In this document: piece after piece, positions 3,001 through 62,709 of the stretch
Position numbering within the stretch: position 1 is the first letter of the stretch
How the letters are laid out: each line of letters begins with the position of its first letter
Made by a program: the position numbers and the translations under genes
Notes under the pieces: generated by a model
What the model saw: only the letters and a program-made list of their open reading frames with translations
What the model was told of the DNA's origin: nothing
The model's database searches: none
Assembly: GCA_029565915.1 (NCBI GenBank)
Contig: JAKQNG010000204.1
Span: 8,755-72,754 of the forward strand
Length of the DNA stretch: 64,000 bases
Source of the DNA: Deltaproteobacteria bacterium
GTDB lineage: Bacteria; Myxococcota_A; Polyangia; JAAYKL01
Direction: 5' to 3'

Positions 3001-6000
3001 CGCCCTCCGATCACTGGATTCGACGTTGGCCGACGGTGCCTTCATCGACGGGTCCCGGCTGCTCGATCGGCTGGGCGTCGCGGAGCGGCACGAACGGCTC
3101 CTCCACGCCATGTTCGATCACCTCGTTGGCGCGGGCCTGGCCCGCCGGGAGTCCGCCGGGTGGCGCATGTCGGAATGGCCGAAAAAGGATGTCCGTCTGG
3201 TGGTGGCCAGGGCACAAACCGATCTGGCGCCTTTTGCCCGCGAAATTGAATTCTTCGCCCGGACCGGCGCCGAACTCGCCGCCGTGCTGCGGGGAGAAAC
3301 GGATCCGGGGGACGTGCTCTTTGCGGGAAACCGGTTTGACGAACTGGCCGACTACTACGCCAACTCCTTCACCACCGTCCGCATCAACCAGATGGCCGCT
3401 GACGCCTTCTGCGCGCTCCTTTCCACGGTTCCCGCCGGTCGTCCCCTGCGGGTGCTGGAGCTGGGCGCGGGCACCGGCGGCCTGACCCGGCACCTCCTGC
3501 CCCTGGTGGAAGAGCGGAACGGCACGTACCTGTTCACGGACCTGTCGCCCCTGTTCCTCGCCCGGGCGAGGGAAACCTTCAAGTACAACCCGGCAATGGA
3601 GTTCGCGGTGCTGGACATCGAAACGGATCCCGCTGCCCAGGGACAGATCCCTCACAGCTGGGACATCGTCGTCGCCTCGAACGTCCTTCACGCCACGGAG
3701 GACCTGCGCCGCACGCTGGCAAACTGTCGCTCCCTCCTGTGCGACAATGGCGTACTGTGCCTCGTCGAAGTGACAAGGGCGCCTCGATATCTCGATCTCA
3801 GCTTCGGCATGACCGAAGGCTGGTGGCGTTTCCGGGACGATGTGCGGACCGATCGCTGCACCCTGTCGGCGGAGGCCTGGCGCAGCGTGCTCGCGGAGTC
3901 CGGCTTTCCGGACGTGGCCGATTTCAGCGACGGCGAAGGACCGGATGCGGTGGCCCAGACACTGTTCGTTGCCCGGGCGCGAAGTGCTGCACAGGGAGAG
4001 CGGTTGGATCCGCGCCGTCCGAACGGCATCTGGCTGATCCTCGGCGACAATCGGGGCGTGTCCGCGGCGGTATCGGCCCTCCTCCGGGAGCGGGGCGATC
4101 GATGCATCCGCCTCACCTGCGCATCGAAAACGGCACCGACCGGTGTAGATCGCTTCGATTTCGATCCCGCCTGTCCGGACGCCCTCATCGACCATCTGCG
4201 GACCTTCGACGGACCTCTGCTGGGGGCACTGCACACCGCTTCGCTCGACCTGCCGCCCATCGAGGACAGCGACCCGACGGCGCTGCTGCGTGCGCAGGGA
4301 GACGGCGCCTGGTCGGCCATCGGCCTCGGCCGGGTGCTGTCCGCCGTGGGCAACGAGTCGTTTCTGTGGCTGGTCACCGCCGGTGTGCACGGCCCGACGC
4401 CGGCCCTGTCCCGGTCGCCCATGTGGGGTCTGGGTCGGGTGATGATGAACGAGCTCACCGGTGTGGCCGTGCGGCTGCTGGACGTGGACGGCGCCCTGCG
4501 GGTGGAGGACTGCGCGCGGATCGTGCAGGAGATGTGTGCGCCCTGTGCGGCGCCTTTCGAAGAAGAAATTGTTCTGCGGGACACGGGCCGCTTCGCAAAC
4601 GTCCTGGTGCGGGATCACCGGCCAAGGCGGATCGCCCGGGCCGTGCGGACGATTCCCTCCTGCGGGGCGACGGTGTCCCTGCGCCGGTCGTCCTCCTTTG
4701 TGCTGGACGATTGCATTTTCGTACCGTCGGACACGGCGATCTGCAGTGACGACGACGTAGCCATCGACGTGCATGTCGCGGGACTCAATTTCCGGGATGT
4801 GATGGTGGCCGGCGGAACCCTGCCGCGGGAAGCGGTGGAGGGCGGGCTTTTCGGCGATGCCCTCGGACTGGAGTGCGCGGGCATCGTGACGCAATGCGGC
4901 AGGCATGTCTCCCATGTGCGGGTGGGGGATGCGGTCATGGCCCTCGCCCGGGGGACCCTGTCGGGGCGCGTGGTCGCCCGGGGCGTTCTCACCCGGAAAA
5001 TTCCTTCGGGAATGGGGATGGCAGACGCCGCCGCCCTGCCTATGGCCCTGCTCACCGCCTGGTATTCGCTGGTGACCCTGGGCCGCCTGGAAGCGGGAGA
5101 GAGGGTGCTCATCCACGGGGCCGCCGGCGGGGTGGGCCTCGTGGCCGTTCAGCTGGCACAGGCCATGGGCGCTGAGGTATTCGCCACGGCGTCCAGGCCC
5201 AAGCACGACCTGCTGCGGGAACTGGGCGTCCGCTACGTGTTTGATTCCCGATCCGCCGCCTGGGCGGACGGGGTGGACGCCGCCGCGGAAGGGCGAGGGG
5301 TCAACGTGGTGCTGAACTCTCTCTCCGGCGTCCAGCTCACGCGGGGGCTGCGCCTGCTGGCGCCCATGGGTCGCTTCATCGAAATCGGCAAGGTGGACCT
5401 GTACGCAAACCGGCGCCTGGCCATGGGACTGTTGAAGGACAACGGCGCCTGGTTCAGTGTGGATATTGATCGGTTGCTGGTGCAGGCCCCGCAGAAGATG
5501 GCTGCCGCGTTCGATGAGGCCCTGCATTTCTTTGCGGTGCGCCGGTGGCCCGCACTGTCCGTGTCCGTGCATCCCTTGTCCGGGGCCGCTGATGCACTGG
5601 CCCTCATGGCAAAGGGCAACCATCGCGGTAAAATCGCGCTGGCCGCTGCGGATGTGCCGGTACACCCGGCCGAACACCTGACCGTGGCCAGGGACGGGGT
5701 ATTTCTCATCGCCGGGGGAACCCGGGGCTTCGGCCTTGCCGTGGGGACGTTTCTCGCGGACCGCGGTGCCCGGCACCTCGCCCTGCTGTCCCGGGGTGGC
5801 CTGCGAGGGGAAGAGGAAACCCGCGCGGTGGCCGCGCTGCGCCACCGGGGTGTGAATGTGGAAATTTTTGCGACAGACGTGACCGATCGCCTTGCTGTGG
5901 AGCGGGTGATTGCCGCCATTCATCGGGAGGAGCGTCCTCTGCGCGGCGTGTTCCAGTCCACGCTCGTGCTGGACGACGCCATGCTCGACCGGATGACCCG

Positions 6001-7549
6001 CCCCCAGCTGGACGGGCCCATGGCCCCCAAAGTGGCGGGCACCTGGAACCTGCACCTCGCCACGATCGGCATCCCCCTCGACTGGTTCGTCTCGTTTTCG
6101 TCCATCTCGTCCATTTATGGATTTCCCGGACAGGCGAACTATGCGGCAGCCAACCGGTTCCTGGACGATTTTGCCCTGTACCGTCGCTCCCTGGGGCTCC
6201 CCGGCACCACCATCAACTGGGGGGCACTGCAGGGCGCCGGATTCGTGGAACGCTCGGCCGCGGTGCGCAGTTTCCTCTCCAACAACGGCTGGGAAACGCT
6301 GACGCTGGAGGAGGCGCTGTCCGCCATGGAGCGCGTGCTGCTCGAAGGCCACCCGCAGATGGCCGTGTTCCGTGCGGACTGGTCCACCGTGGGACGCTCT
6401 TTCCCGGCCGGGTTGTCGTCCCTGCGGTTTGCCCATCTGCACGGCGCGGGTGCCGCCGAAAAGGACGACGGTGACCTGCGCGTGGCACTGACGGCGGCAG
6501 CTCCGGCGGCGCGGGCGATGCTGCTGCAGGGGTTCATTGCCGGGGCCACAGGGGCCATCATCGGTGCGGACGGCGCAAAGGTGGATCGACAGACGCCCCT
6601 CAACCGGCTGGGCCTCGATTCCCTGATGGCCAATCAGCTGCGCAGCGTACTGACCTCCCGCACGGGGGTCGAAATTTCTCTCATGCAGATCATGGCCGGG
6701 CCCACCATTGCGGATCTGGCCAACGAAATGGCATCCCGGTTCGAGAACACGGCGACGTCAGGCAGTGATCGTTCCGGTGGACAATGGGTGACGCGGGTCA
6801 CACCGGTTGCTTCACCGCAACTGCGGCTCTTCTGCCTGCCCTATCTGGGCGCCGGCGCCTCGATCTATTCGCGTTGGCAGGTGGGAGAAAACGTGGAGGT
6901 CTGTGCCATCGCCCTTCCCGGACGGGAAGAGCGCATCGGGGAGCCGCCTCTGACAGATGCCCATGAGTTGATCGAAACCATGGCCGGGGCTCTTCTGCCT
7001 CTGCTGGATGTGCCCTTTGCCATTTACGGCCACAGCTTCGGTGGAAACCTGGCCTTCAGCCTGGCGTCCTTCCTGCAGGAACGCCACGGAAAGGTACCCG
7101 ACCGCGTCTTCATCGGCGCCGCCGTGCCGCCGGGGATCGACAATCCCCTTGAAGAAGAGTTCCGCATTGCCGACAAGGATGAGGCCGCACGCCTCTCTGA
7201 CGACGCCCTGCGGGCGCTGCTCCAACGGCTCGGCGCACCGTCGGCGCTGATTCATGATGAAGCGGCGTTTTCCCGGATGGCACCGGCCCTGCGGGCGGAT
7301 CTGGCTATCGCCAAACAGCGTTTATTTCCGTCGGATCACCGTCTCCGCTGTCCCATCGTGGCCATTGCAGCCAGGGGTGACCACCTCTACAGCGAACAAC
7401 TTCTGCGTCACTGGCAACGGCATTCGGATGACTTTTCCCTGGAGGTTGTGAACGGCGGACACCTCTTCGTGCACGAAGACGAAGCAATGAAACACATACT
7501 GAAAATAATGTCACATCGATGGATCACACCGGCCCTGCGCTCGGCCTGA
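2..7549 (+). CDS. Type I polyketide synthase, 5'-truncated at the window edge. Domain order: KS (C-terminal part) - AT - DH - C-methyltransferase - ER - KR - ACP - thioesterase.
   Basis: The reading frame is open from nt 2 (RDGNRIYAAILGSAINEDGR... is a KS-like sequence). AT GHSIGE plus VPFHSH (malonyl-type). DH HxxxGxxxxP (HRVQGPLVFPGAGH). SAM motif LELGAGTGG. ER LIHGAAGGVGLVAVQLA. KR IAGGTRGFGLAVG. ACP LGLDSLMANQLRS. TE GHSFGG. Stop at 7547-7549. Confidence 0.9.
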   Translation, partial: RDGNRIYAAILGSAINEDGRTDGIAQPDKDAQVAVMRAAYADAGIDPSIVGLVEAHGTGTAAGDPVECSSIGQVIGAGRTDRCLIGSVKSNIGHTELASGSAGLIKLALSLFHGQAPPVVHFRTPNPKIDFDGWRLQVPVRVTPVPAREGIRYGAVNSFGFGGANAHLVLRSVPPAETRTTGEGPLCAPLFISARSEKSLRRLAGAYADLLEKGIDGRELAQQVIRHRSRLEDGLALTDPRHADAAARLRNFARGRDSEGVIPGRRQLPEKGQTAFVFSGQGPQWWGMGRELFSAGGVYRDTVEEVSDLLKQIGWLKEEGSDLVAELHRDEASSRMNETAVVQPALFALQLGLARLWMSHGVMPDMVVGHSIGEVAAACVSGALTVAEAVKVVYWRSRCQSRAAGRGRMLAVGLSAEDASGAIGTFGGKIDVAAINGPAMVTLAGDADALALLARGLEERGVFVRFLVVDVPFHSHLLDDVARAFCEEVPAIVSSPPRIPLYSTVTGLPVEGAVLDNDYWAANIRQPVQFYPTVQRMARDGAAAFIEMSPHPILANGLTAALSAAGTKGIVISSLRRKEPDIPTFSGNFCALWLAGGGIDRTVFGPGGAHLREPLPAYPFAEERFWLESPEARADRIGTRVHAHLASCTSAADDGNDQIWQVELDARCAPYIRDHRVQGPLVFPGAGHVDLALAAGMASFGDRLCFLEDIEFIRPLFVREDGEPDAVQLHVVGDEGDYTIAGRTAERDTPWTIFSKGRMNCLGEAFCTEPVSLKMLKARIVHPVALPPLFDVLDRGGLVLGDTFRGIRALWRGEGESLARIEAHPSIVHSLARHCIHPALLDAGFQSAFGILAQEERMGVYIPRRIGRVRFAGPPAGTVLYAWARAAGTDREHLRVDIRIFNEDGSDVLQVEGFEGQYLKGSRGEVDAVDSLFYRYELRPCARRDELVTHRLGAALAPPVPVDEAVRRTMDRHRADPLSARFFDALSPAMDELAMGVILDALRSLDSTLADGAFIDGSRLLDRLGVAERHERLLHAMFDHLVGAGLARRESAGWRMSEWPKKDVRLVVARAQTDLAPFAREIEFFARTGAELAAVLRGETDPGDVLFAGNRFDELADYYANSFTTVRINQMAADAFCALLSTVPAGRPLRVLELGAGTGGLTRHLLPLVEERNGTYLFTDLSPLFLARARETFKYNPAMEFAVLDIETDPAAQGQIPHSWDIVVASNVLHATEDLRRTLANCRSLLCDNGVLCLVEVTRAPRYLDLSFGMTEGWWRFRDDVRTDRCTLSAEAWRSVLAESGFPDVADFSDGEGPDAVAQTLFVARARSAAQGERLDPRRPNGIWLILGDNRGVSAAVSALLRERGDRCIRLTCASKTAPTGVDRFDFDPACPDALIDHLRTFDGPLLGALHTASLDLPPIEDSDPTALLRAQGDGAWSAIGLGRVLSAVGNESFLWLVTAGVHGPTPALSRSPMWGLGRVMMNELTGVAVRLLDVDGALRVEDCARIVQEMCAPCAAPFEEEIVLRDTGRFANVLVRDHRPRRIARAVRTIPSCGATVSLRRSSSFVLDDCIFVPSDTAICSDDDVAIDVHVAGLNFRDVMVAGGTLPREAVEGGLFGDALGLECAGIVTQCGRHVSHVRVGDAVMALARGTLSGRVVARGVLTRKIPSGMGMADAAALPMALLTAWYSLVTLGRLEAGERVLIHGAAGGVGLVAVQLAQAMGAEVFATASRPKHDLLRELGVRYVFDSRSAAWADGVDAAAEGRGVNVVLNSLSGVQLTRGLRLLAPMGRFIEIGKVDLYANRRLAMGLLKDNGAWFSVDIDRLLVQAPQKMAAAFDEALHFFAVRRWPALSVSVHPLSGAADALALMAKGNHRGKIALAAADVPVHPAEHLTVARDGVFLIAGGTRGFGLAVGTFLADRGARHLALLSRGGLRGEEETRAVAALRHRGVNVEIFATDVTDRLAVERVIAAIHREERPLRGVFQSTLVLDDAMLDRMTRPQLDGPMAPKVAGTWNLHLATIGIPLDWFVSFSSISSIYGFPGQANYAAANRFLDDFALYRRSLGLPGTTINWGALQGAGFVERSAAVRSFLSNNGWETLTLEEALSAMERVLLEGHPQMAVFRADWSTVGRSFPAGLSSLRFAHLHGAGAAEKDDGDLRVALTAAAPAARAMLLQGFIAGATGAIIGADGAKVDRQTPLNRLGLDSLMANQLRSVLTSRTGVEISLMQIMAGPTIADLANEMASRFENTATSGSDRSGGQWVTRVTPVASPQLRLFCLPYLGAGASIYSRWQVGENVEVCAIALPGREERIGEPPLTDAHELIETMAGALLPLLDVPFAIYGHSFGGNLAFSLASFLQERHGKVPDRVFIGAAVPPGIDNPLEEEFRIADKDEAARLSDDALRALLQRLGAPSALIHDEAAFSRMAPALRADLAIAKQRLFPSDHRLRCPIVAIAARGDHLYSEQLLRHWQRHSDDFSLEVVNGGHLFVHEDEAMKHILKIMSHRWITPALRSA

Positions 7550-7649: not shown

Positions 7650-8786
7650 CTATTCCAGAATGATGAACGCGTCGCAGGGGCAGGAAACCGAAACGGCGAC
7701 ATTGCCGGTCTTGATGGATGCGCAGGCGTCTCCCACGAGCTCAATCTGGGACGGCGAGTTCATCTGCCATCCGTCCGGGTCCTCAAAGTCGAGGCGGGAC
7801 ACGTCGTCGCCGGCCGTGATGGAGACGTCACAGCTGCTCTGTTTGCCGTCCACCATTTCGCCCGTCAGATCGAGGACGCAGCTGCGCACGCCGTTGATAA
7901 TGGTGTCGAACGCCTCCACGAGTCCCTGTCCGTCCGTGGCTTCCCACCACTGCGCGTCCGTCATGGCACCCACGCCCGCATTGGCCAGATTCTGCATGTG
8001 CGACGCGGTGGTGTCTGCCCCGACGCTGATGATGTAGGTGGACACGCCGGCCGCAAAGGCCGCCGCCACCTGTTCTTCCGAATAGGCCCGGGCCTCCGCC
8101 GTCTGGGGGTCGGGAACCGCGCAGGTGTCCGGATCGCCGTCCGTGGCCAGCACGATGACCTTCGGACCGGGCTCGTCGATGGCCAGCAGCTCCGCGGCGA
8201 TGAGCTGGACCGACTCGGCGGTGGGGGTGTCCTCGCCCATGTCCGCCGGATCGAACAGATCATAAATGGCCGGGTAGTTGTCGAGGGCCGGCGCCACGGT
8301 GGTCAGCAGGGGGCATTCGTCGGGAACGGACCCGCCGTTGTAGCTGGTGTACAGGGCGATGCCGAAGCGCACCCGATCATCGAGCTGGAGAACGATGCCG
8401 TTTGTTTCGTCAATGAGCACCTCCTTCACCACCTCCCAGCGGGACGGGTCCCCGTGACCGGGAAACCCCGCGTCCATGCTGCTGGATTGATCGATGAGCA
8501 GGTACACCGTGGGAATCTGCGGGGTGAACGCCACATCCGCTTCGCCACAGACGGCCCCGGTGTCGGTATCGCTGTCCGTGTCGGTATCGCTGTCCGTGTC
8601 GGCATCACTGTCCCCGTCAGTGTCTCCGTCGGTGTCGGCATCACTGTCGCCGTCGGTGTCGCCGTCGGTGTCCGCATCGGTGTCCCCGTCGGACCCTCCC
8701 AGGTCGTCGCTGCAGGCGCCGGGCAGAAGCGCGATGCCAATCCACAGCGCCAGAAAGAAATAGAGAGCCTTTTGAGCGTTTTTCAT
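7650..8786 (-). CDS. Secreted vWA-domain lipoprotein with a (D-T/S-D-G/A)n acidic linker.
   Basis: Lipobox LLPGAC. Long DTDGDTDGDSDADTD repeat. MIDAS motif LLIDQSSSMD. RBS AAAGGAGA lies upstream of the ATG at 8786 (alternative ATG at 8804). Confidence 0.75.
   Translation of the reverse strand: MKNAQKALYFFLALWIGIALLPGACSDDLGGSDGDTDADTDGDTDGDSDADTDGDTDGDSDADTDSDTDTDSDTDTGAVCGEADVAFTPQIPTVYLLIDQSSSMDAGFPGHGDPSRWEVVKEVLIDETNGIVLQLDDRVRFGIALYTSYNGGSVPDECPLLTTVAPALDNYPAIYDLFDPADMGEDTPTAESVQLIAAELLAIDEPGPKVIVLATDGDPDTCAVPDPQTAEARAYSEEQVAAAFAAGVSTYIISVGADTTASHMQNLANAGVGAMTDAQWWEATDGQGLVEAFDTIINGVRSCVLDLTGEMVDGKQSSCDVSITAGDDVSRLDFEDPDGWQMNSPSQIELVGDACASIKTGNVAVSVSCPCDAFIILE
8561..8690. repeat. Tandem repeats (18-nt units, two copies exact) encoding the acidic linker of the vWA lipoprotein.
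   Basis: gtcggtatcgctgtccgt occurs twice exactly at 8562-8597, followed by degenerate copies (gtcggcatcactgtcc..., gtcggtgtcgccgtc...). Confidence 0.7.
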
Positions 8787-8963
8787 GAGATCTCCTTTAC
8801 CCATCGCCGGCGGGTTCCCCCGTCGCGGTCCTGATGATTAGTTGTTTCATCCAGCCGGGATTCCGCAATGCGGCTGTTGGATTCTACCGATTTTCACAGA
8901 ACGGTCGGAATGTTTTTAGTGAGGCAGGATGTTTGGACAAATACTGCAGAACGACCGTGTCTG

Positions 8964-37802: not shown

Positions 37803-38291
37803 TCATTGGCACGGGGTGGTCGGCAGTCCCGCGGCGGTCCATGCGTCGATGCCGCCGTCCAGAATCCACAGGGATGTGTATCCGCTTTCCTGAAGGGTCG
37901 TGAAGGCACTCTCGCTGCGTACGCCCCGCCGGCAGTAAATCAGGATGTCCGCATCAACGGAAACTTCGGTGAGGCGATCCGGCAGCTGATCCCAGGGAAT
38001 CAGCAGGGATTCGCCGATGCAGCCGAGCTCGTAGAATTCCACGTCGGCCACGTTGAGCAGCAGCAGGTCTGCACCTCCTTCGAGGGCGGCCGACAACTGG
38101 TCCGGAGAAACGAATTTCTGCGCAGGAAGCGATGCCGTTTCGCTGTTGCTGTCCTCGTCTTCCGAGGACGACGTGTCTGCGCCCGTCGCGGAGGTATCGG
38201 AATCCCCGTCCGGTGGCGACGGGGAGTCGGCGCAACGACCGCCGAGCAGCGCCGGCGCGAAAAAAAGCAGGAGAACAGATATGGTTTTCAT
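37803..38291 (-). CDS. Secreted rhodanese-domain sulfurtransferase with an acidic N-terminal linker.
   Basis: Signal peptide. Active-site loop YCRRGVRS. Confidence 0.75.
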   Translation of the reverse strand: MKTISVLLLFFAPALLGGRCADSPSPPDGDSDTSATGADTSSSEDEDSNSETASLPAQKFVSPDQLSAALEGGADLLLLNVADVEFYELGCIGESLLIPWDQLPDRLTEVSVDADILIYCRRGVRSESAFTTLQESGYTSLWILDGGIDAWTAAGLPTTPCQ

Positions 38292-42127: not shown

Positions 42128-42129
42128 AT

Positions 42130-42893
42130 CGGCGGAACTGATTAGAAAGGTACATTCCGCTTCATCCGGGTCCGGAATCCCTCCCGTTTGCCTTCTGAAA
42201 AAGTAACAATTTGAAATTATTAATATTTTAAGTATTTTCCGAACGATAAAGACAGGTCATTTCGCCGACGTGGAAATAAAAAATGAATATTCTGGAGATA
42301 TATATTGGCAACTCTGCATTCCGGCGGTATATTTATTTTCGGAAGGCACCCATGCGGACGGGAACCCGGAAAGGTGCTTTCTAAAAAGGATTTCCGGCCA
42401 TGTGCCGGTGGTGCGACGACCCCGAAAGGGGATATCTGGACTGTCTCTGAACTGAAGGAACCCGAACACGGATGGAGTGCGACGCCCGGATTTGACACCG
42501 GGTCGTCTGGACTGCTCCAGGACTGAGGAACCCAAACACGGAAGAAAGGAGGAAAACCGTGCTTGCAGCACTGGACCAGTTCCGTGGTTCCCGCCACGGC
42601 CGCGTCGCATGTTTTAACAAAGAACTTGCCCGCCGATACCAGCATCCGATGGCGCGCGTTTTCATAGTAGCGGATTCCCGCGGTAAAAATTGCGGTTTCT
42701 GATTAATGGTGTGGATGCTTTCCATCGGCTCCGGGGCTTTTATCTTCAATATATTGAATTTGTATTCCTCAAGTCCTGCGGTGAGGCGGAATCCGGTTGA
42801 AGTACGGACAGTCCCGGTGTAACAAAACTGCGAAATTTTTTACGCGGTCCAAGCGACGGTACCGTCCCGAACGAACAATCGAAGGAGAACACC
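42130..42893 (+). promoter_or_regulatory. 764-nt non-coding leader upstream of oadGAB: AT-rich islet, triplicated GGAACCC(G/A)AACACGG motif, and a stable hairpin.
   Basis: AT-rich stretch at 42199-42340. Motif copies at 42361, 42457 and 42527. The latter two sit in 38-nt direct repeats at 42437-42476 and 42508-42545. Hairpin CCGTGGttcccgCCACGG at 42581-42598. RBS GAAGGAGA precedes the oadG ATG. Confidence 0.5.
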
Positions 42894-47376: not shown

Positions 47377-48354
47377 TCAGTCCTTCTCCGTAGCCCGCGC
47401 CACCATCAACAGGTAGGTCCGGGCGGCTTCCACGCGGGTGAACGGGTCCTCACTGGCCATGGCCGCCGCCGCCGCGGCCAGATCCACCGCACCGGGCGCT
47501 GCCCCCACGGCGCCCAGCATCCGCACCGCTTCCCGCTGCAGGGCGCCATTGCCCCGCACGCAGATCCGCCGCAGCAGCTCCGGTGGATGAAACCGCATGG
47601 GTGAATCCAGCAGTCGCAGCAGGACGCTGTTGGGCCAGGCATCCTTCTTGCGGGGAAAACCGCCGGCGGGTGCGGTCACGCCGAAGGAGGACAGCAGTTC
47701 GCCCCGCAGATCGGCCGCCAGCGGATATCGCGTGCCGTTCTGCGTTCCGGCCAGCTCGCGCCGTCTCGCCGCGGAAAACGCCACAGCCACGGCCAGCGGT
47801 CCGTTGTCGAAGGGCGCCAGCAGGGCGGGAAGCGCCTTCCATTCGTCGGGAAGCGGTGCGTCGGCGGTGGCGTCGCCCGCGTGCATGGCAGTGCGCAGTC
47901 CGTCCGGGACAGTTCCGCGTCGCGCGCAGGCCAGCCATGCGAATACCGCCACTTCCGGGGCCGTGTCGTCGTTCCCGCGCCAGGGGGGAAGCGGATCGTC
48001 AACGCGCTCGGCGATCCATCGCCAGCACAGGGCCGCCAGCAGCGGATCGGCGTCCTCGGTGCCGCGGGCGATGGCGGATTGTGCCTTTTCTTCGTCGTGG
48101 CGCAGGGACAGGCGCCGGGCGTACACCGCCGCCCAGGCAGCGAGGGTCGGGTCGTTGCCACTCAGGGCATCCGCGAGGATATCCGCCGCAACCTGCGCAT
48201 CCCTCTCCACCAGATCGTCGATGGGGCCGGGGTCTGTTTCCGTTGCGTTCGGTTCGTCCGGCGACTCCGCAATGACGCGGGAGGCACCACCGCTGCCCCC
48301 GCAGGCGCAGAGCAGTATCGTCGCGAACACCATCCCGGAGCGGCGGGGGATCAT
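47377..48354 (-). CDS. Hypothetical lipoprotein (helical repeat).
   Basis: Lipobox LLCAC. Overlaps both neighbouring genes by 4 nt (operon). Confidence 0.4.
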   Translation of the reverse strand: MIPRRSGMVFATILLCACGGSGGASRVIAESPDEPNATETDPGPIDDLVERDAQVAADILADALSGNDPTLAAWAAVYARRLSLRHDEEKAQSAIARGTEDADPLLAALCWRWIAERVDDPLPPWRGNDDTAPEVAVFAWLACARRGTVPDGLRTAMHAGDATADAPLPDEWKALPALLAPFDNGPLAVAVAFSAARRRELAGTQNGTRYPLAADLRGELLSSFGVTAPAGGFPRKKDAWPNSVLLRLLDSPMRFHPPELLRRICVRGNGALQREAVRMLGAVGAAPGAVDLAAAAAAMASEDPFTRVEAARTYLLMVARATEKD

Positions 48355-52019: not shown

Positions 52020-54764
52020 ATGAAACCCTGGATGGAATCTGCCCAATCGGTCGCGCAGCAACTGGCCACAAACCCCGCCGTCGGACTCTCCTCCGCGGAG
52101 GCGGAAGCGCGGCTGATAAAATACGGTCCCAACGAGCTGAAGGAAACCGGCGGTCGCAGCATCGCCGCCATGCTCTTCGAACAGTTTTCCGCCACCATGG
52201 TGGTTATCCTGATCATCGCGGCCGTCGTGTCGCTGTGCATCGGTAAATACCTCGAATCCGTTTCGATTTTCATCATCGTCATCATGTTCGGCCTGCTGGG
52301 GTTCTTTCAGGATTACCGGGCCGAAAAGGCCATGGCCGCCCTGAAGAAGATGTCCCGTCCCCGGGTGCGGGTGCGGCGGGACGGCCAGATCTGCGAGCTG
52401 GAATCCACGGCCCTGGTGCCCGGCGACGTGGTGCTCATCGAAAACGGCAACATCGTGCCCGCGGACGGACGGCTGGTGGAGTGCGTGTCCTGCCAGGTGC
52501 AGGAGGCGGCCCTGACCGGGGAATCCGAGAGCGTCGAAAAGCATCTGGAAGTCGTCCCCGACGAGGCGGCAGGCCCGGGTGATCGCCGCAACATGGTGTT
52601 CATGGGCACCACGGTGACCAACGGCCGCGGCGCCTTCATCGTCACGGGTTCGGGCATGGACACGGAGCTGGGCCGCATCGCCGCCATGCTCTCCGCGGTG
52701 AAGGAAACGCAGACGCCCCTGCAGAAGAAGCTGGACGGGGCCGGCAAGCTGCTGGCCGCCGTGGGCGGGGCGGTGGCCGTGCTCATCGCCGGGGCGGGTC
52801 TGCTGCGGGGCGAGAGCCCGGCGGACATGTTCCTGCTGGCCATCAGCGTGGCCGTGGCGGTCATCCCCGAAGGATTGCCCGCGGTGGTGACCATCACTCT
52901 CGCCATCGGCGCCCGCCGCATGCTGGCGCGCCATGCCCTCATCCGGCGGCTGCCCGCGGTGGAAACCCTGGGCTCTGTCACCCACATCTGCTCGGACAAG
53001 ACCGGCACCCTTACGCAGAACCGGATGACCGTGCAGTCCGTTCTCGTGCCGGAAAATCCCGGCGATGTGCCCGCGGCGGTTGCGGACGCCCGGAATCCGG
53101 AGATGCTGCTCCTGTGCGGCGCCCTGTGCAACGACGCCCGTCTGTCAAAACTGCCGGATGGCAGCGGACTCTCCGCCATCGGCGACCCGACCGAAGGCGC
53201 CCTTGTAATGGCGGCCGGCGAAAAGGGCCTGCAGCAGGACGATATCGAAGCCCTGTTTCCCCGGGTGGCGGAATTCGCCTTTGACAGCGACCGCAAGCGG
53301 ATGACCACCGTGCATGAGATCACCGCCGCGGCCCGGCAGAAATTTGCCGCCTTTGCCGCTGCACCCATGGCCGGCTGCGATCACGTGGCCTTCATCAAGG
53401 GATCGCCGGACGGACTGCTGGATACGGCCTCGTCTGTCATGACGCGCGCCGGTGCCGCTTCCCTGGACGACCGCTGGACGAAAACCCTGGAGGACGCCAA
53501 CGAATCCCTGGCTCAGTCGGGCATGCGAGTGCTGGGCGCCGGCTTCCGGCCGTTGCCGAAGGACTGGAAAACCAGCCTTGCCACAGCGGATCAGATGGAG
53601 CGGAACATCGTCATCGCCGGCCTGTTCGGCCTGATCGATCCGCCCCGATCGGAAGTGCGGGACGCCATTGCCCTGTGCCGCACGGCGGGCATCCGTCCGT
53701 TCATGATCACGGGGGACCATCCGCTCACGGCCCGGGCCATCGCAAAGGAACTGAAGCTCGATTCGGGGGAGCGGGCCATCAGCGGCAAGGAGCTGCAGAC
53801 CATGGACGAGCCCGGCCTGACGGCCAGCCTGCACGACGTGTCCGTGTTTGCCCGGGTGTCGCCGGAGCACAAAATCCGCATCGTCACGGCCCTGCAGCAG
53901 GAGGGCGGCGTGGTGGCCATGACCGGCGACGGGGTGAACGACGCACCGGCCCTGAAGAAGGCCGATATCGGCGTGGCCATGGGCATCACGGGCACGGATG
54001 TGTCCAAGGAAGCCTCGGACATGGTGCTGCAGGACGACAACTTTGCCACCATCGTGGCGGCGGTGGAAGAGGGCCGCGTCATCTACGACAACATCCGCAA
54101 GTTCATCAAGTTTTCCATTGCGGGCAACCTGGGCAAAATTCTGGCGGTCAGTGTACTGCCCTTCGCGTGCCTGTTTCTGCTGCAACAGATGAATGGTGAC
54201 ACCGGGCTCACGGCCCCGGCGGTGGCCCTGCTGCCCCTGCAGCTCCTGTGGTTGAACCTGCTGACGGACGGATTGCTGGGCGTGGGACTGGGCGTGGAAC
54301 CCGCGGAGAGCGGCGTGATGAAGCGTCCCCCGGTGTCTCCGACCGCGGGGGTGTTCAGCGGCGGCATGATCGGTCAGATCCTGCGCATGGGCGGCCTCAT
54401 CGGCCTCATCTCCCTGGCGACGGGCATCTGGAGCTGGCACAGCGGATCCGAGACGTGGCAGACCGTGCTGTTCACCACCCTCGCCTTTGCTCAGGTATTC
54501 CAGGCCATCGGCACAAGGTCCACCACCGACTCCCTTCTGCGCATCGGTCTGTTCTCCAATCCATCCATCATGGGCCTTGTGGTGCTCGTTTCCGGCCTGC
54601 AGATGGGCTCCGTGTACCTTCCCCCCATGCAGAAGTTCCTCGGCACCACCGCCCTGTCCGGCAGCGATCTCCTGCTCAGCATTGCCGCCAGCTCCCTCGT
54701 GCTCGTTTACTCGGAAGTGGACAAACTCCTGTTCCCGGCCCCCCACGCCCGCAAAGCGAAATAA
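52020..54764 (+). CDS. Cation-transporting P-type ATPase (type II/III-like).
   Basis: ICSDKTGTLTQN phosphorylation motif. TGDGVNDAPALKKADIG hinge motif. Ten TM segments predicted. Confidence 0.9.
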   Translation: MKPWMESAQSVAQQLATNPAVGLSSAEAEARLIKYGPNELKETGGRSIAAMLFEQFSATMVVILIIAAVVSLCIGKYLESVSIFIIVIMFGLLGFFQDYRAEKAMAALKKMSRPRVRVRRDGQICELESTALVPGDVVLIENGNIVPADGRLVECVSCQVQEAALTGESESVEKHLEVVPDEAAGPGDRRNMVFMGTTVTNGRGAFIVTGSGMDTELGRIAAMLSAVKETQTPLQKKLDGAGKLLAAVGGAVAVLIAGAGLLRGESPADMFLLAISVAVAVIPEGLPAVVTITLAIGARRMLARHALIRRLPAVETLGSVTHICSDKTGTLTQNRMTVQSVLVPENPGDVPAAVADARNPEMLLLCGALCNDARLSKLPDGSGLSAIGDPTEGALVMAAGEKGLQQDDIEALFPRVAEFAFDSDRKRMTTVHEITAAARQKFAAFAAAPMAGCDHVAFIKGSPDGLLDTASSVMTRAGAASLDDRWTKTLEDANESLAQSGMRVLGAGFRPLPKDWKTSLATADQMERNIVIAGLFGLIDPPRSEVRDAIALCRTAGIRPFMITGDHPLTARAIAKELKLDSGERAISGKELQTMDEPGLTASLHDVSVFARVSPEHKIRIVTALQQEGGVVAMTGDGVNDAPALKKADIGVAMGITGTDVSKEASDMVLQDDNFATIVAAVEEGRVIYDNIRKFIKFSIAGNLGKILAVSVLPFACLFLLQQMNGDTGLTAPAVALLPLQLLWLNLLTDGLLGVGLGVEPAESGVMKRPPVSPTAGVFSGGMIGQILRMGGLIGLISLATGIWSWHSGSETWQTVLFTTLAFAQVFQAIGTRSTTDSLLRIGLFSNPSIMGLVVLVSGLQMGSVYLPPMQKFLGTTALSGSDLLLSIAASSLVLVYSEVDKLLFPAPHARKAK

Positions 54765-54782
54765 TCCGCCGCGGAGGCGGGG

Positions 54783-54900
54783 AGCCTGCAGCAGATCTCG
54801 GATACAGAGTACACCTTCAAGCTGAAGACGCCCTGGCGGGACGGGACTACGTATCTGATCCTCTCGCCCATGGAGCTGATCGAGAAGCTCGCGGCCCTGG
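54783..54900 (+). mobile_element. Relic of an IS91-family transposase C-terminus (about 40 aa).
   Basis: Translation ...EYTFKLKTPWRDGTTYLILSPMELIEKLAALVPPP matches the conserved IS91 TnpA C-terminal block (TPWRDGTTH..MSPLEF..RLAALVP). It reads in-frame directly after the ATPase stop and then decays. No catalytic N-terminal part is present. Confidence 0.45.
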
Positions 54901-55178
54901 TGCCACCACCCGGCCGCCGCCGCAACTGGAATTCGACTACGTAGACATCGACGACGACACCGGCGCGTGAGCTGGACGCTGACAAATTCCTGCCGTCTTC
55001 CATCAGACAGGCGTACGATAGAGTTCAAGCTGACAGAAACAAGGCGGAGGGATGGAAGAAACGATGACTTTCAGACAGCAGGAAAAGGGGCTTAATCCGT
55101 CCGATGTCCAATAGCGAAAATGAATTGGGTGGGCATCCAACAATTTTTCCGACAACAAAAAACAACAAGGGGGCCATC

Positions 55179-56033
55179 ATGTCCATTATTCGTGAAGTTA
55201 TCAGCAAGAAGGTGCGCAGGTCGATGATTGTTCTTTTACTTGTTCTAATTTCAGGGAGTTGCTCCAACAACAATGAAGATGTTGATCAGACTGATGACAC
55301 TGAGAGCAGCAGCGATTCGGACTCGAATGATACCGATACAGATTCTGGTTCCACGGACGCAAACAGCGTGTACGCAAACACAACAATGACCTACGGAGAG
55401 ATTACACCAGAGGACTTTCCGATTCTGTCCGAAGATTGGCGAATCACCGGCATTGAAGCTCTTCGGTGTCTTCTTTGGAACTATGACAGCGAGACCCGTG
55501 TACTGGTTGTGGACTGGATTAATGAGAGTGCGCCATCCACCCATCTTGAATGGCAAATCATGACGGACGATTCAGCGTCGATTACTTCGTTCGTCATTTT
55601 TAAAGACGACGCGGAGTGTTCTGAGAACTCTGGTCTGCTCTACAACTGGCGGATTGAGTCGACACTTGAGGACAGCGCTGAGGGTGGCATGTTTGATGTT
55701 TCCATCCGGAATTGTCTTGCGAATGATTATGAAATTGCAAGGACCGTTCCTGTTTCCCCGGTCGATGTTCCACGAGGTGCGATTTGTCAGCATTTTGATG
55801 ATTTTGAGGTCTTCCCGATGAACACAACTGGGTGTGGTACGCAGGAAGGATTTTGCCGTTCAACAAATAATGTGACCTTCGCAGCAGATTGCACTGTGTC
55901 AGATCAGGTTTGTGAAGTTGGGTTGGAGTGTTTTTCCGACAGGTGTTTATCGCCTTGTGAAACTGTAGACGATTGTGCCGATGAGGTTATCTACGATTGT
56001 CAGAATAGTGTCTGTGTGCTTCGTCAGAACTGA
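55179..56033 (+). CDS. Low-GC, horizontally acquired lipoprotein with an acidic S/T/D linker and a Cys-rich C-terminal module.
   Basis: RBS AAGGGGG. Lipobox LISGSC. Linker SDSDSNDTDTDSGSTD. About 45% GC versus about 67% in the flanks. C-terminus with 12 Cys (CGTQEGFC...CEVGLECFSDRCLSPCETVDDCADEVIYDCQNSVC). Confidence 0.6.
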   Translation: MSIIREVISKKVRRSMIVLLLVLISGSCSNNNEDVDQTDDTESSSDSDSNDTDTDSGSTDANSVYANTTMTYGEITPEDFPILSEDWRITGIEALRCLLWNYDSETRVLVVDWINESAPSTHLEWQIMTDDSASITSFVIFKDDAECSENSGLLYNWRIESTLEDSAEGGMFDVSIRNCLANDYEIARTVPVSPVDVPRGAICQHFDDFEVFPMNTTGCGTQEGFCRSTNNVTFAADCTVSDQVCEVGLECFSDRCLSPCETVDDCADEVIYDCQNSVCVLRQN

Positions 56034-56223
56034 TCTGCCCTGCTGTCCGGGCTGACCCCGGTCGCGCACCCCACCCGGGAAAGCCGAAATCATTCGTGAA
56101 TCTGGCCCAGTCGTCACAGCGAAAGCAGTTGAGGCGCGATACACCCGCCGGGTTGTTGCGCCGGTGTGTTCAATCAAGTAAGAGATTTGCAGATTCGCGG
56201 TTGATCCGTCGAAGGAGGCACCC

Positions 56224-57216
56224 TTGATCAAGGTTGAGCATCTGACCAAGAAATATGCGGCTGTGGCGGCCGTGGACGGCATTTCGTTTGAAATTGCCGA
56301 ACGGGAAATCGTGGGATTCCTGGGGCCCAACGGCGCCGGAAAGAGCACCACGCTGAAGGTGCTCACGGGCTATCACGCGGCGAGCGGCGGCCGCGTCACC
56401 ATCGGTGGGAAGGATGTCTTTGCGGAACCCGAATCCGTGAAAAAAATGATCGGCTACCTGCCCGAAAACGTGCCCCTCTATCCCGAGATGCGGGTGCGCG
56501 AATACCTGCACTACCGCGCCGGCCTGAAGGGTGTGGGGAGAAAACGGAGAGAGGCCGCCGTGGACGGCGCCATGGGGCGCTGCCGCATTGACGGCGTGGC
56601 CGATCGGATCATCGGTCAGCTTTCCAAGGGCTACCGGCAGCGGGTGGGCCTGGCGGACGCCCTGGTGGCGGATCCCCCCATCCTCATCCTGGACGAGCCC
56701 ACCATCGGCCTCGACCCGGGTCAGATCCGGGAGGTGCGGGAGCTGATCCGGGAGCTTGGAAAGGAACGGACGGTGCTCCTCTCCAGCCACATCCTGCCCG
56801 AGGTGGAGGCGGTCTGCTCAAGGGTGCTGATCATCAACCGGGGACGCATCGCGGGCAGCGGGCGTCCCGACGAGCTGCGCGCCGCCGCGGGACAGAACGA
56901 AACGATTATCGACCTCGAAATACGGGACGGTGGAGAAGACGGCCATCGGGTATTTGAAGCCGTCGACGGCATCACCGCAGTCGACATTGAACAGGGAGAC
57001 GGCCCGGTCCGGCGGATCCGACTGCGAGGGGAGGGCGGTCGCGACGTGCGTGAGGCGGTGTTCGATGCGGCCGTCGCGGGCGGCCTGAAAATCCTGTCCA
57101 TGGGACAGAGAAGCCATTCCCTCGAAGACGTCTTTGTTGACATTGTCACCCGCGAGGAAACGCCGGACGAACCCGCGCCACCTCCGGCCGAGGCTGCGGC
57201 GCAGGAGGCCCCATGA
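56224..57216 (+). CDS. ABC transporter ATP-binding protein (GldA-like).
   Basis: Walker A GPNGAGKST. Signature LSKGYRQR. Walker B ILILDEPT. TTG start with RBS GAAGGAGG. Confidence 0.85.
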   Translation: MIKVEHLTKKYAAVAAVDGISFEIAEREIVGFLGPNGAGKSTTLKVLTGYHAASGGRVTIGGKDVFAEPESVKKMIGYLPENVPLYPEMRVREYLHYRAGLKGVGRKRREAAVDGAMGRCRIDGVADRIIGQLSKGYRQRVGLADALVADPPILILDEPTIGLDPGQIREVRELIRELGKERTVLLSSHILPEVEAVCSRVLIINRGRIAGSGRPDELRAAAGQNETIIDLEIRDGGEDGHRVFEAVDGITAVDIEQGDGPVRRIRLRGEGGRDVREAVFDAAVAGGLKILSMGQRSHSLEDVFVDIVTREETPDEPAPPPAEAAAQEAP

Positions 57217-62530: not shown

Positions 62531-62709
62531 TTCTTTATAAATTCCGGAATATTCGCCTCCGGGATCTCCATCGGGATCGGGCCTTCTCGACTTTTTCCCG
62601 ATTTTTTCGTGAAACGCACCTCCCATCATCATCTAAAACAAAGCTCGTAAAAGTTTTCATAAAAAAGGGCCATGAACCCGTTTTCCCCGTATTTCCAAAG
62701 GAGCCTGTC

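What the first reader, a model, noticed from the sequence alone, without database searches (positions are those of the whole stretch)
54765..56040. Low-GC islet after the P-type ATPase: IS91 transposase relic plus a foreign Cys-rich lipoprotein gene
Directly after the ATPase stop, and in the same frame, is a roughly 40-aa remnant of the conserved IS91-family TnpA C-terminus (TPWRDGTTYLILSPMELIEKLAALVP). This is followed by about 1.1 kb of about 45% GC DNA in a genome that is about 67% GC. The AT-rich DNA carries one gene: a lipoprotein with an acidic S/T/D linker and a 12-Cys C-terminal module. The host GC content resumes abruptly at about 56035. IS91 elements move by rolling-circle transposition and are known to co-mobilise adjacent DNA one-ended. 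This looks like such a scar. The imported cargo adopts the same lipobox plus acidic-linker architecture as native lipoproteins at 7650-8786 and 62710 onward.
Basis: partly seen in the sequence, partly recalled or inferred. Interest (0 to 1): 0.6.

Follow-up and report, generated by a model that had tools for sequence, protein, structure and literature searches.

The report
AT-rich lipoprotein gene beside transposase scrap
Between a cation pump gene and an ABC transporter operon of a GC-rich uncultured digester bacterium lies a 1-kb AT-rich insert that carries one orphan cysteine-rich lipoprotein gene; a 47-codon scrap of an IS91-type transposase gene sits beside it, and this is a real but fairly ordinary trace of horizontal gene acquisition.

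Summary
Window 54980-56036 is 47.1% GC against a window mean of 63.2%, which is about 4 sd below same-size windows and the lowest in 64 kb. Its single gene (true start 55179, 284 aa) has GC3 0.48; every other ORF has 0.63-0.86. The stretch 54786-54926 is a genuine IS91/ISCR-family transposase fragment (Pfam Y2_Tnp above its cut-off). It is an internal piece (aa 284-330 of 470), not the C-terminus.

- The fragment keeps a high-GC codon signature (GC3 0.87), so it does not share the cassette's compositional history.
- No IS91 trace flanks the only two other family members.

Those two homologs are also about 47% GC single-gene islets. They sit in GC-rich contigs (about 50-70% GC) from anaerobic digesters, at different loci. 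Their cassette is far more alike (dS 0.16) than the neighbouring genes, so it moves. Divergence from the window copy is deep (dS about 1) with no drift towards host GC.

The protein has no Pfam, PDB or fold match. It is under purifying selection (dN/dS about 0.25).

Verdict: an acquired orphan lipoprotein cassette next to an unrelated IS relic. Interest is modest.

The parts
52020..54764 (+). P-type cation ATPase gene (914 aa). It is the left flank of the islet, and its C-terminus is complete.
   Evidence: Pfam E1-E2_ATPase and Cation_ATPase_N/C. The C-terminal 70 aa align to the end of 8 homologs. GC 0.654, GC3 0.85.
54766..54780 (.). GC-rich palindrome CCGCCGCGGAGGCGG directly after the ATPase stop codon. 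It is probably the native 3' hairpin of the ATPase gene.
   Evidence: Flagged by the terminator scan on the - strand. Sequence read. Function is inferred.
54786..54926 (+). Internal 47-codon fragment of an IS91/ISCR-family (HUH, Y2) transposase gene. It is a pseudogene relic, in the same frame as the ATPase. After 'ALVPPP' the similarity is lost, possibly through a frameshift.
   Evidence: Pfam Y2_Tnp 23.9 bits, above the 20.9 cut-off. NCBIfam ISCR_clade_Ia E 5.7e-9. tblastn E 5e-9 to aa 284-330 of 470 of a Thiodictyon TnpA and aa 344-381 of ISCR1 TnpA, and the only such hit in the window. GC 0.64, GC3 0.87.
54980..56036 (.). Low-GC segment (the islet proper), 1057 bp, GC 0.471.
   Evidence: Maximal-scoring segment analysis and window statistics. 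Profiles.
54987..55084 (.). Distal upstream part of the islet, bounded by a 12-nt inverted repeat (TTCCTGCCGTCT / AGACAGCAGGAA). It has no detectable homology to the other family members. Origin unknown.
   Evidence: Inverted repeat I4. The distal alignment is not above shuffles, z 0.67.
55095..55178 (+). Conserved 5' leader of the cassette, including the ribosome-binding site AAGGGGG 6 nt before the ATG.
   Evidence: The proximal 70 nt align to the L003 leader with z 4.5, and 0 of 500 dinucleotide shuffles reach the score. Alignment A3.
55179..56033 (+). Orphan lipoprotein gene, 284 aa. Order of parts: signal peptide, lipobox (Cys28), acidic N/D/S/T linker (about aa 29-62), a beta-rich domain of about 150 aa, and a C-terminal module of about 65 aa with 10 Cys.
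   Evidence: ORF. Homolog alignment with all Cys invariant. GC3 0.48. dN/dS 0.23-0.27. No Pfam, NCBIfam, PHROG, PADLOC or PDB match.
56034..56223 (.). Host-composition intergenic region (GC 0.61) before the ABC operon. It holds a weak hairpin, CCGGG-CTGAC-CCCGG, just after the lipoprotein stop codon.
56224..57216 (+). ABC transporter ATPase, the first gene of a gldA/F/G-like ABC operon. It is the right flank of the islet.
   Evidence: Pfam ABC_tran. Downstream ABC2_membrane, ABC_transp_aux and DUF4340 genes.

Best explanation
The ATPase-ABC intergenic region of this GC-rich, Myxococcota/deltaproteobacteria-like digester bacterium holds two separate traces of DNA acquisition.

(1) An AT-rich cassette of about 0.95-1.05 kb. 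It consists of a short conserved leader plus one gene for a membrane-anchored, disulfide- or metal-rich lipoprotein. The cassette belongs to a tiny family that moves horizontally among GC-rich bacteria of anaerobic digesters. It has spent most of its evolutionary time in an AT-rich reservoir, presumably an unsampled phage, plasmid or other mobile element of these hosts. The product is probably exported by the Sec pathway, lipid-modified at Cys28, and held on a flexible acidic tether that presents a folded beta-rich domain and a Cys-rich domain in the periplasm or at the cell surface.

(2) A decayed internal fragment of a high-GC IS91/ISCR-type transposase gene. Deletions have trimmed it right up to the end of the ATPase gene. 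It marks the same spot as insertion-prone but did not come from the same source as the cassette.

Shown: the composition, the relic's identity, the family distribution, the relative divergences and purifying selection.
Inferred: the reservoir, export and lipidation, the order of events, and the function.
For: Composition:
- Cassette GC 0.471 against 0.632 for the window, the lowest segment in the window.
- GC3 0.48 against 0.63-0.86 for all other ORFs.
- GC1 is also low (0.50). That fits a protein shaped by long residence in AT-rich DNA.

Family:
- Only two other 90%-identity clusters exist among 5.8e9 proteins. A full HMMER scan of 1.84e9 representatives finds nothing credible beyond them.
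- Both homologs are 46-48% GC genes in GC-rich contigs (50-70% GC), at different loci and in different orientations.

Mobility:
- Between L003 and L006 the cassette has dS 0.16, 90% identical synonymous codons, and 159 of 174 identical upstream non-coding bases.
- The neighbouring Lcl_C and peptidase C1 genes have only 61-65% identical synonymous codons.

No amelioration:
- The window copy differs from the others by dS 1.0-1.1, yet GC3 is 0.48, 0.48 and 0.50, and AT-to-GC versus GC-to-AT differences are symmetric (88 against 86).
- At third positions on the L003 and L006 branches there are 12 AT-to-GC and 10 GC-to-AT changes. About 81% AT-to-GC would be expected under drift towards GC3 0.8 (P = 0.004).

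Functional gene: dN/dS 0.23-0.27, and all 15 Cys are invariant.

Relic: identity as. GC3 is 0.87.

Fixation: the islet is present, at 99.97-100% identity, in every other contig of this population that spans the site, from six or more assemblies.

Host fit: the lipobox plus acidic-linker architecture matches native lipoproteins of this genome. That points to a reservoir co-evolving with this host group rather than a distant donor.
Against: - No donor, vector or AT-rich context for the family has been seen. Phage, plasmid and IMG/VR searches are empty.
- No empty site could be recovered. The closest ATPase relatives are at most 70% identical and not syntenic.
- The L003/L006 neighbour genes used as a yardstick could be paralogs, and they are themselves of intermediate GC3 (0.60-0.64).
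- The amelioration test rests on 22 polarised third-position changes.
- Close juxtaposition of the relic and the islet argues that the two events may not be independent.
- The function of the protein is wholly inferred. The structure models were of low confidence (pLDDT 41.6 and 59.3).
Confidence: 0.65

Rival explanations
1. An IS91/ISCR-type rolling-circle element captured the lipoprotein gene and delivered it here, by one-ended transposition or ISCR-like capture. Most of the IS was then deleted, which left the 47-codon fragment.
For: - The relic is genuine, and it lies within 250 bp of the only strong GC outlier in 64 kb, in the same orientation.
- ISCR1 typically has variable captured genes on its oriIS (downstream) side (PMC6218425). 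That matches the order tnpA fragment, then cargo.
- IS91-family termination fails in 1-14% of events and then mobilises adjacent DNA (PMC13181058).
Against: - Relic GC3 is 0.87 against 0.48 for the cassette.
- The two other cassettes have no IS91 trace, and their homology borders lie tight around the gene.
- Experimentally, one-ended transposition carries terIS-side (upstream) DNA (PMC13181058), and here that side is the ATPase.
- The roughly 140 C-terminal codons and any oriIS are missing. No subterminal palindrome or intact copy was found.
- No near-identical TnpA exists in 5.8e9 proteins, so the relic looks old.
Confidence: 0.17
2. The gene is a long-standing native gene of this lineage. 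Its AT-richness is kept by selection, for example rare-codon control of translation and folding of a 15-Cys secreted protein, or binding of a nucleoid-associated silencer. It is not the result of horizontal transfer.
For: - The family is seen only in GC-rich hosts.
- Composition is stable over dS of about 1.
- The architecture is typical of the host's own lipoproteins.
- The islet is fixed in all sampled contigs of the population.
Against: - The cassette differs in position and orientation in the three genomes.
- The L003/L006 cassette is about four times less diverged at silent sites than the adjacent genes, and its non-coding leader is 91% identical.
- The non-coding flank 54980-55178 is also AT-rich, which codon-level selection does not explain.
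- GC1 is shifted as well as GC3.
Confidence: 0.12
3. An assembly chimera. The AT-rich piece comes from another organism and was wrongly joined in the metagenome assembly.
For: - The source is a metagenomic contig.
- Several short contigs break at 54920-55048.
Against: Contigs from independent assemblies span both junctions at 99.97-100% identity. L178 and L179 span the ATPase, relic, islet and ABC gene. L002, L174 and L175 span the islet-to-ABC junction.
Confidence: 0.01

Closest known systems
IS91 / ISCR family insertion sequences (HUH Y2 rolling-circle transposases; Pfam PF04986 Y2_Tnp)
   Same: The stretch 54786-54926 encodes 47 aa that are 44-50% identical to the conserved region after the catalytic-tyrosine motif of IS91-family TnpA proteins. 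A cargo-like gene lies downstream, as it does beside ISCR1.
   Different: Only about 10% of the transposase gene remains. There is no Zn-finger N-terminus, no HUH motif, no catalytic Tyr, no oriIS or terIS, and no intact copy in 64 kb. The fragment's codon signature (GC3 0.87) is the opposite of the adjacent cassette's.
Small horizontally acquired genomic islets and ORFan genes of low GC (the 'amelioration' framework of Lawrence and Ochman; from my own knowledge)
   Same: A single gene with atypical base and codon composition, sharp borders, patchy distribution, a different location in each genome, and a mobile-element remnant next to it.
   Different: The family shows no drift towards host GC despite dS of about 1. 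It has so far been seen only inside GC-rich hosts. No donor lineage is known.
Phage 'morons' and other self-contained single-gene cassettes with their own leader
   Same: A compact unit (leader plus one gene for an envelope protein) inserted between unrelated operons. It is more AT-rich than its surroundings, and it encodes a lipoprotein, as many morons do.
   Different: There is no prophage context here or at the homolog loci. There is no match in phage, IMG/VR or PHROG searches.
Native acidic-linker lipoproteins of Myxococcota-like bacteria (e.g. window 7650-8804 on the - strand, and from 62710 on the + strand)
   Same: Signal peptide, then lipobox Cys, then a long D/S/T/N/G-rich tether, then a globular domain.
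   Different: There is no sequence homology in the globular part. The native genes use GC-rich codons (GC3 about 0.8), whereas this gene uses GAT, AAT, ATT, GTT and TGT.

Membership tests
IS91/ISCR family element | Similarity to the Y2_Tnp transposase domain | tested here: met
   Pfam PF04986 at 23.9 bits against a 20.9 cut-off, E 4.8e-5. NCBIfam ISCR_clade_Ia E 5.7e-9. tblastn E 5e-9. Only profile positions 123-169 of 183 are covered.
IS91/ISCR family element | Complete transposase with N-terminal zinc-binding region, HUH motif and catalytic tyrosine(s) | tested here: not met
   tblastn with two full-length TnpA proteins (470 and 489 aa) finds only aa 284-330 and 344-381 in the window. The RY motif region would lie where the intact ATPase 3' end now is.
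IS91/ISCR family element | oriIS and terIS ends with subterminal palindromes, and a target tetranucleotide (GTTC or CTTG) next to oriIS | tested here: inconclusive
   Repeat scans show no convincing subterminal palindrome between 54926 and 55180, only a 12-nt inverted repeat at 54987/55073. About 420 bp of the tnpA 3' coding sequence is missing, so an oriIS in its normal place is excluded. End consensus sequences of this IS subgroup are unknown.
IS91/ISCR family element | Intact copy elsewhere in the genome | not testable with these tools
   None in the 64-kb window or the 43-kb contig. The rest of the genome is not available. No protein sharing 5-residue words with the relic scored in 5.8e9 sequences.
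One-ended (IS91) transposition product | Co-mobilised DNA lies beyond terIS, i.e. upstream of tnpA (PMC13181058) | tested here: not met
   The AT-rich gene lies downstream of the tnpA fragment. That arrangement is known only as the observed ISCR1 context (PMC6218425).
Horizontally acquired genomic islet | Base and codon composition clearly different from the host's | tested here: met
   GC 0.471 against 0.632. GC3 0.48 against 0.63-0.86.
Horizontally acquired genomic islet | Patchy distribution and non-syntenic locations of homologs; silent-site divergence lower than that of the host backbone | tested here: met
   Caveat: there are only three family members, and the orthology of the yardstick genes is unverified.
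Horizontally acquired genomic islet | Empty site in a close relative | not testable with these tools
   The nearest ATPase relatives are at most 70% identical and have different neighbours. All contigs of the same population that span the site carry the islet.
Bacterial lipoprotein (signal peptidase II substrate) | Positively charged n-region, hydrophobic h-region, and a lipobox ending in Cys | tested here: met
   The sequence MSIIREVISKKVRRSMIVLLLVLISGS|C fits the PROSITE PS51257 pattern as I recall it. The homologs have the canonical L-I-G-C. No dedicated predictor was available, and lipidation itself is untested.
Integron gene cassette | attC recombination site with a GTTRRRY core downstream of the ORF | tested here: not met
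   By inspection only, of 56034-56223 and of the L003/L006 downstream sequences. No GTTRRRY / RYYYAAC pair was seen. The cassette carries its own 5' leader, unlike most integron cassettes.

The most novel reading that the evidence does not exclude
The AT-rich unit (leader plus lipoprotein gene) is a self-contained mobile cassette. It circulates among GC-rich digester bacteria from an unsampled AT-rich reservoir, and it may be moved in trans by a single-strand (HUH-type: IS91, IS605 or PATE-like) transposase. Two hints fit this reading. A hairpin-bearing 48-nt repeat flanks the L003 copy in inverted orientation, and an IS91 fragment lies beside the window copy. Under this reading the cassette's stable 47% GC over dS of about 1 reflects life on that reservoir, and the lipoprotein would be a mobile-element-borne surface factor, for example for exclusion or host interaction.
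Probability: 0.1. Interest if true: 0.5.

Novelty: new member of a known kind. Interest (0 to 1): 0.3.

Why it matters
The finding documents a clean, datable-looking example of single-gene acquisition in an uncultured GC-rich lineage. It also corrects a tempting over-interpretation. A transposase scrap next to foreign DNA is not proof that it carried that DNA, and here the codon signatures of the two differ outright.

The one mildly surprising point concerns the three-member protein family. It keeps about 47% GC across saturating silent divergence, yet it is known only from GC-rich hosts. That implies an unsampled AT-rich mobile reservoir in anaerobic digesters, or else selection for AT-richness.

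The protein itself (15 invariant Cys, no known domain) is an uncharacterised envelope protein family.

Tried and rejected
1. Searching for an empty site. I used a genome-contig scan and a metagenome-contig scan with the ATPase, a 5.8e9-protein search, and contexts of the best relatives. The best identity was 70% and there was no synteny. The metagenome scan was swamped by generic P-type ATPase motifs and did not even return the source contig.
2. Looking for strain variants without the islet through exact-protein look-ups of the ATPase and the ABC ATPase. All are 99.97-100% identical, and every contig that spans the site carries the islet. The one apparent alternative junction (L176, bases 1-51) is an Illumina adapter.
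3. A second, degenerate copy of the relic at 55022-55070 ('EFKLTETRRRDG'). The local alignment is not above shuffles, with 24 of 500 reaching the score. Rejected.
4. A shared CGTACG at a similar distance (159-163 nt) upstream of the ATG in all three cassettes. The distal leader alignment is not significant (z 0.67), and the coincidence was noticed post hoc. It is not used.
5. Remote homologs P0004 and P0005 from the profile search. Both are long tandem-repeat proteins that score by summing 8-15 weak stretches. I treat them as artefacts.
6. Structure. AlphaFold2 on the mature protein gave pLDDT 41.6, and on the Cys-rich C-terminus 59.3. Foldseek against the PDB gave E of at least 5.8. No fold was assigned.
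7. Pfam, NCBIfam, PHROG, PADLOC and PDB sequence searches of the lipoprotein gave nothing usable.
8. A search for a close full-length TnpA with the relic peptide. No scoring candidates were found.
9. Repeats bounding the ATPase-plus-relic segment, prompted by contig breaks at 51788 and 54920-54932. None were found.
Full report
**1. What is in the sequence**

The window averages 63.2% GC. A maximal-segment analysis places the strongest low-GC stretch at 54980-56036: 1057 bp at 47.1% GC. That is about 4 standard deviations below same-size windows and is the lowest in the 64 kb.
- The right edge is abrupt and coincides with the stop codon of the only gene inside. GC goes from 0.46 to 0.70 between 56000 and 56035.
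- The left edge is gradual, over 54975-55100.

**2. The flanks**

Upstream lies a 914-aa P-type cation ATPase (52020-54764; Pfam). Its C-terminus aligns to the ends of eight homologs, so the gene is complete.

Downstream, after 190 bp of host-like DNA (61% GC), an ABC transporter operon starts at 56224. It comprises ABC_tran, ABC2_membrane, ABC_transp_aux and DUF4340 genes.

**3. The transposase relic**

The 59 codons after the ATPase stop, in the same frame, hit several transposase models:
- Pfam Y2_Tnp: 23.9 bits against a cut-off of 20.9, E 4.8e-5, profile positions 123-169 of 183.
- NCBIfam ISCR_clade_Ia: E 5.7e-9.
- A PHROG family: E 2.8e-8.
- By tblastn, at least 5000 plasmid records; those with an annotated feature under the match are IS91 or ISCR1 transposases.

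I ran tblastn with two full-length transposases against the window and the homolog loci. The similarity is confined to 54786-54926. That corresponds to aa 284-330 of a 470-aa protein and aa 344-381 of ISCR1 TnpA. So this is an internal fragment of about 10% of the gene, not the C-terminus.

The following are absent:
- the upstream catalytic region;
- the last 140 or so codons;
- any recognisable end;
- any other IS91 piece in the window.

No protein in 5.8e9 shares even short words with the relic, so it is not a recent copy of a sampled element.

The fragment has GC 0.64 and, in the transposase frame, GC3 0.87. That is the codon signature of a GC-rich genome.

**4. The gene in the islet**

The ORF is listed from 55104. 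The homologs start at the Met at 55179, which follows a GGGGG ribosome-binding site. The product is 284 aa, with these parts in order:
- a basic n-region;
- a hydrophobic core;
- a lipobox ending in Cys28;
- an N/D/S/T-rich acidic linker;
- a region of about 150 aa predicted, at low confidence, to be beta-rich;
- a C-terminal module of about 65 aa with ten Cys.

All 15 Cys are invariant in the family.

GC3 is 0.48, against 0.63-0.86 for every other ORF in the window. TGT, GAT, AAT, ATT, GTT and TTA are used 4 to 28 times more often than in host genes.

There is no match in Pfam, NCBIfam, PHROGs, PADLOC or PDB sequences. AlphaFold2 models were poor (pLDDT 41.6 and 59.3) and Foldseek found nothing.

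Native lipoproteins of this genome at 7650-8804 (- strand) and from 62710 have the same lipobox plus acidic-tether layout, encoded with GC-rich codons.

**5. The family and what it reveals**

Only two other clusters exist among 5.8e9 proteins: P0002 and P0003, at 56-58% identity by BLASTP and about 61% over the aligned columns. An exhaustive HMMER profile scan of 1.84e9 representatives adds only two repeat-protein artefacts. Phage, plasmid and IMG/VR searches are empty.

Both homologs come from anaerobic-digester assemblies. Both are themselves 46-48% GC single genes embedded in GC-rich DNA (50-70% GC). They sit at loci unrelated to the window's and in different arrangements relative to shared neighbours. 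Low GC is therefore a property of the family, not of this copy.

Between L003 and L006 the homologous block runs from 174 bp upstream of the start to 15 bp past the stop. Its divergence compares with the neighbours as follows:

| Region compared (L003 vs L006) | Measure |
|---|---|
| Cassette coding sequence | 92% nt identity; 90% identical synonymous codons; dS 0.16 |
| 174-bp upstream leader | 159 of 174 bases identical |
| Adjacent Lcl_C gene | 65% identical synonymous codons |
| Adjacent peptidase C1 gene | 61% identical synonymous codons |

The cassette has thus been exchanged more recently than the host backbones diverged.

The window copy differs from both homologs by dS 1.0-1.1 with dN/dS 0.23-0.27, which indicates purifying selection. 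Yet GC3 is 0.48, 0.48 and 0.50, and AT/GC differences are symmetric at 88 against 86.

Polarised third-position changes on the L003 and L006 branches are 12 AT-to-GC and 10 GC-to-AT. Drift towards a host GC3 of 0.8 predicts about 81% AT-to-GC (P = 0.004). Most of the family's divergence therefore did not happen under the hosts' mutational regime. The alternative is that AT-richness is selected.

In the window, only the 70-85 nt proximal to the start codon are significantly similar to the L003/L006 leader (z 4.5). The distal 115 bp of the AT-rich segment are of unknown origin.

**6. Is the islet real, and is it fixed?**

The other contigs of the same population come from at least six assemblies and are 99.97-100% identical to the window. 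They include contigs that span both junctions, so a chimera is excluded. No variant without the islet was found. One apparent alternative junction is an Illumina adapter.

The nearest ATPase relatives are at most 70% identical and have unrelated neighbours. An empty site could therefore not be recovered.

**7. Mechanism and rivals**

The best-supported reading is that the intergenic region records two acquisitions with different histories: an AT-rich, self-contained lipoprotein cassette from an unsampled AT-rich reservoir, and an older fragment of a GC-rich IS91/ISCR-type element.

The evidence against this is:
- the opposite codon signatures (GC3 0.87 against 0.48);
- the absence of IS91 traces at the two other cassettes;
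- the geometry. In IS91, termination failure at terIS mobilises DNA upstream of tnpA (PMC13181058), whereas here the gene lies downstream.

That geometry does match the observed context of ISCR1, whose variable region lies on the oriIS side (PMC6218425). The 250-bp proximity of the relic to the only strong GC outlier in 64 kb is also unlikely to be chance. I therefore keep this model at about 0.17.

A native gene with selected AT-richness (about 0.12) is disfavoured for three reasons: the non-syntenic locations, the low silent divergence of the cassette relative to its neighbours, and the AT-richness of the non-coding flank.

**8. Comparison with what is known, and novelty**

The relic resembles IS91/ISCR transposases but fails the membership tests for an element: there is no complete transposase and there are no ends. 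The islet meets the compositional and distributional criteria of a horizontally acquired genomic islet; the empty-site criterion could not be tested. It resembles a phage moron in layout but has no phage context. It is not an integron cassette, since no attC core was seen on inspection and it has its own leader.

Overall this is a new member of a known kind. The one unusual feature is the stable AT-rich composition of a family so far seen only in GC-rich hosts. Interest is 0.3.

Noticed in passing
window 42128-42893: A 766-bp stretch without a convincing ORF, at 50% GC (down to 38.5% at 42200-42399). It is the second-lowest GC in the window and lies upstream of an oadG-like small membrane protein gene and an oxaloacetate decarboxylase alpha-like gene. 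There is no Rfam match at gathering threshold.
   Followed up: partly
L003 932-979 and 2008-2055; direct repeats at 1966-1985 and 2079-2098: The homolog cassette in L003 (also L004 and L005) is flanked by a 48-nt inverted repeat that contains the hairpin GGGGCGCCCCTTGCGGGTGCCC. The downstream copy sits between two copies of a 20-bp direct repeat (TTTCCAAATGACTCTGAACC), like a small MITE/PATE-type insertion. It is absent downstream in L006 and absent from the window.
   Followed up: partly
L006 4400-4560: Two to three tandem copies of a motif of about 50 bp (CCTATTTTTCCCTGCGGCATCC.ACTGG...), plus GGTCCCACAGGTCC repeats, lie just upstream of the conserved cassette leader.
   Followed up: no
L003 2-676 (- strand) and L006 3343-4344 (+ strand): An FGE-sulfatase (SUMF1-like) domain gene lies immediately upstream of the cassette in both homolog loci, but in opposite orientations and without nucleotide similarity. 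This may be coincidence or a preferred neighbourhood.
   Followed up: partly
window 54920-55048 and about 51788: Short contigs from independent low-coverage assemblies repeatedly break at the same places. L180 and L181 run from 51788/9 to 54932/54920. L002 starts at 54983 and L174 at 55048. So the ATPase-plus-relic block tends to assemble separately from the AT-rich block. No bounding repeats were found. The cause may be coverage or GC bias, or microdiversity.
   Followed up: partly
L176 1-51: The first 51 bases of this ENA contig are an Illumina TruSeq adapter (…GTGACTGGAGTTCAGACGTGTGCTCTTCCGATCT) fused to genomic sequence. This is contamination in the public assembly.
   Followed up: yes
window 7650-8804 (-), 37803-38291 (-), 47377-48354 (-), from 62710 (+): Several native lipoprotein genes have long D/S/T/G acidic tethers after the lipobox. 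The one starting at 62710 has about 50 residues of DS/DT dipeptide repeats. The intergenic region before it (62531-62709) is only 45% GC.
   Followed up: partly
window 98-7549 (+): A very large ORF of more than 2480 aa runs in from the window start. It begins within a ketosynthase-like sequence (…VEAHGTGTAAGDPVE…), so a polyketide or fatty-acid synthase-type megasynthase occupies the first 7.5 kb.
   Followed up: no
L009, L051, L171, L172, L173: The closest homologs of the P-type ATPase (64-70% identity) have completely different neighbours in every genome. The ATPase gene is therefore itself not syntenically anchored in this lineage.
   Followed up: partly
window 54765-54780 vs 52089-52104: The 16 nt after the ATPase stop (TCCGCCGCGGAGGCGG) match a 16-mer near the ATPase 5' end at 15 of 16 positions. 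This is probably chance in GC-rich DNA.
   Followed up: no
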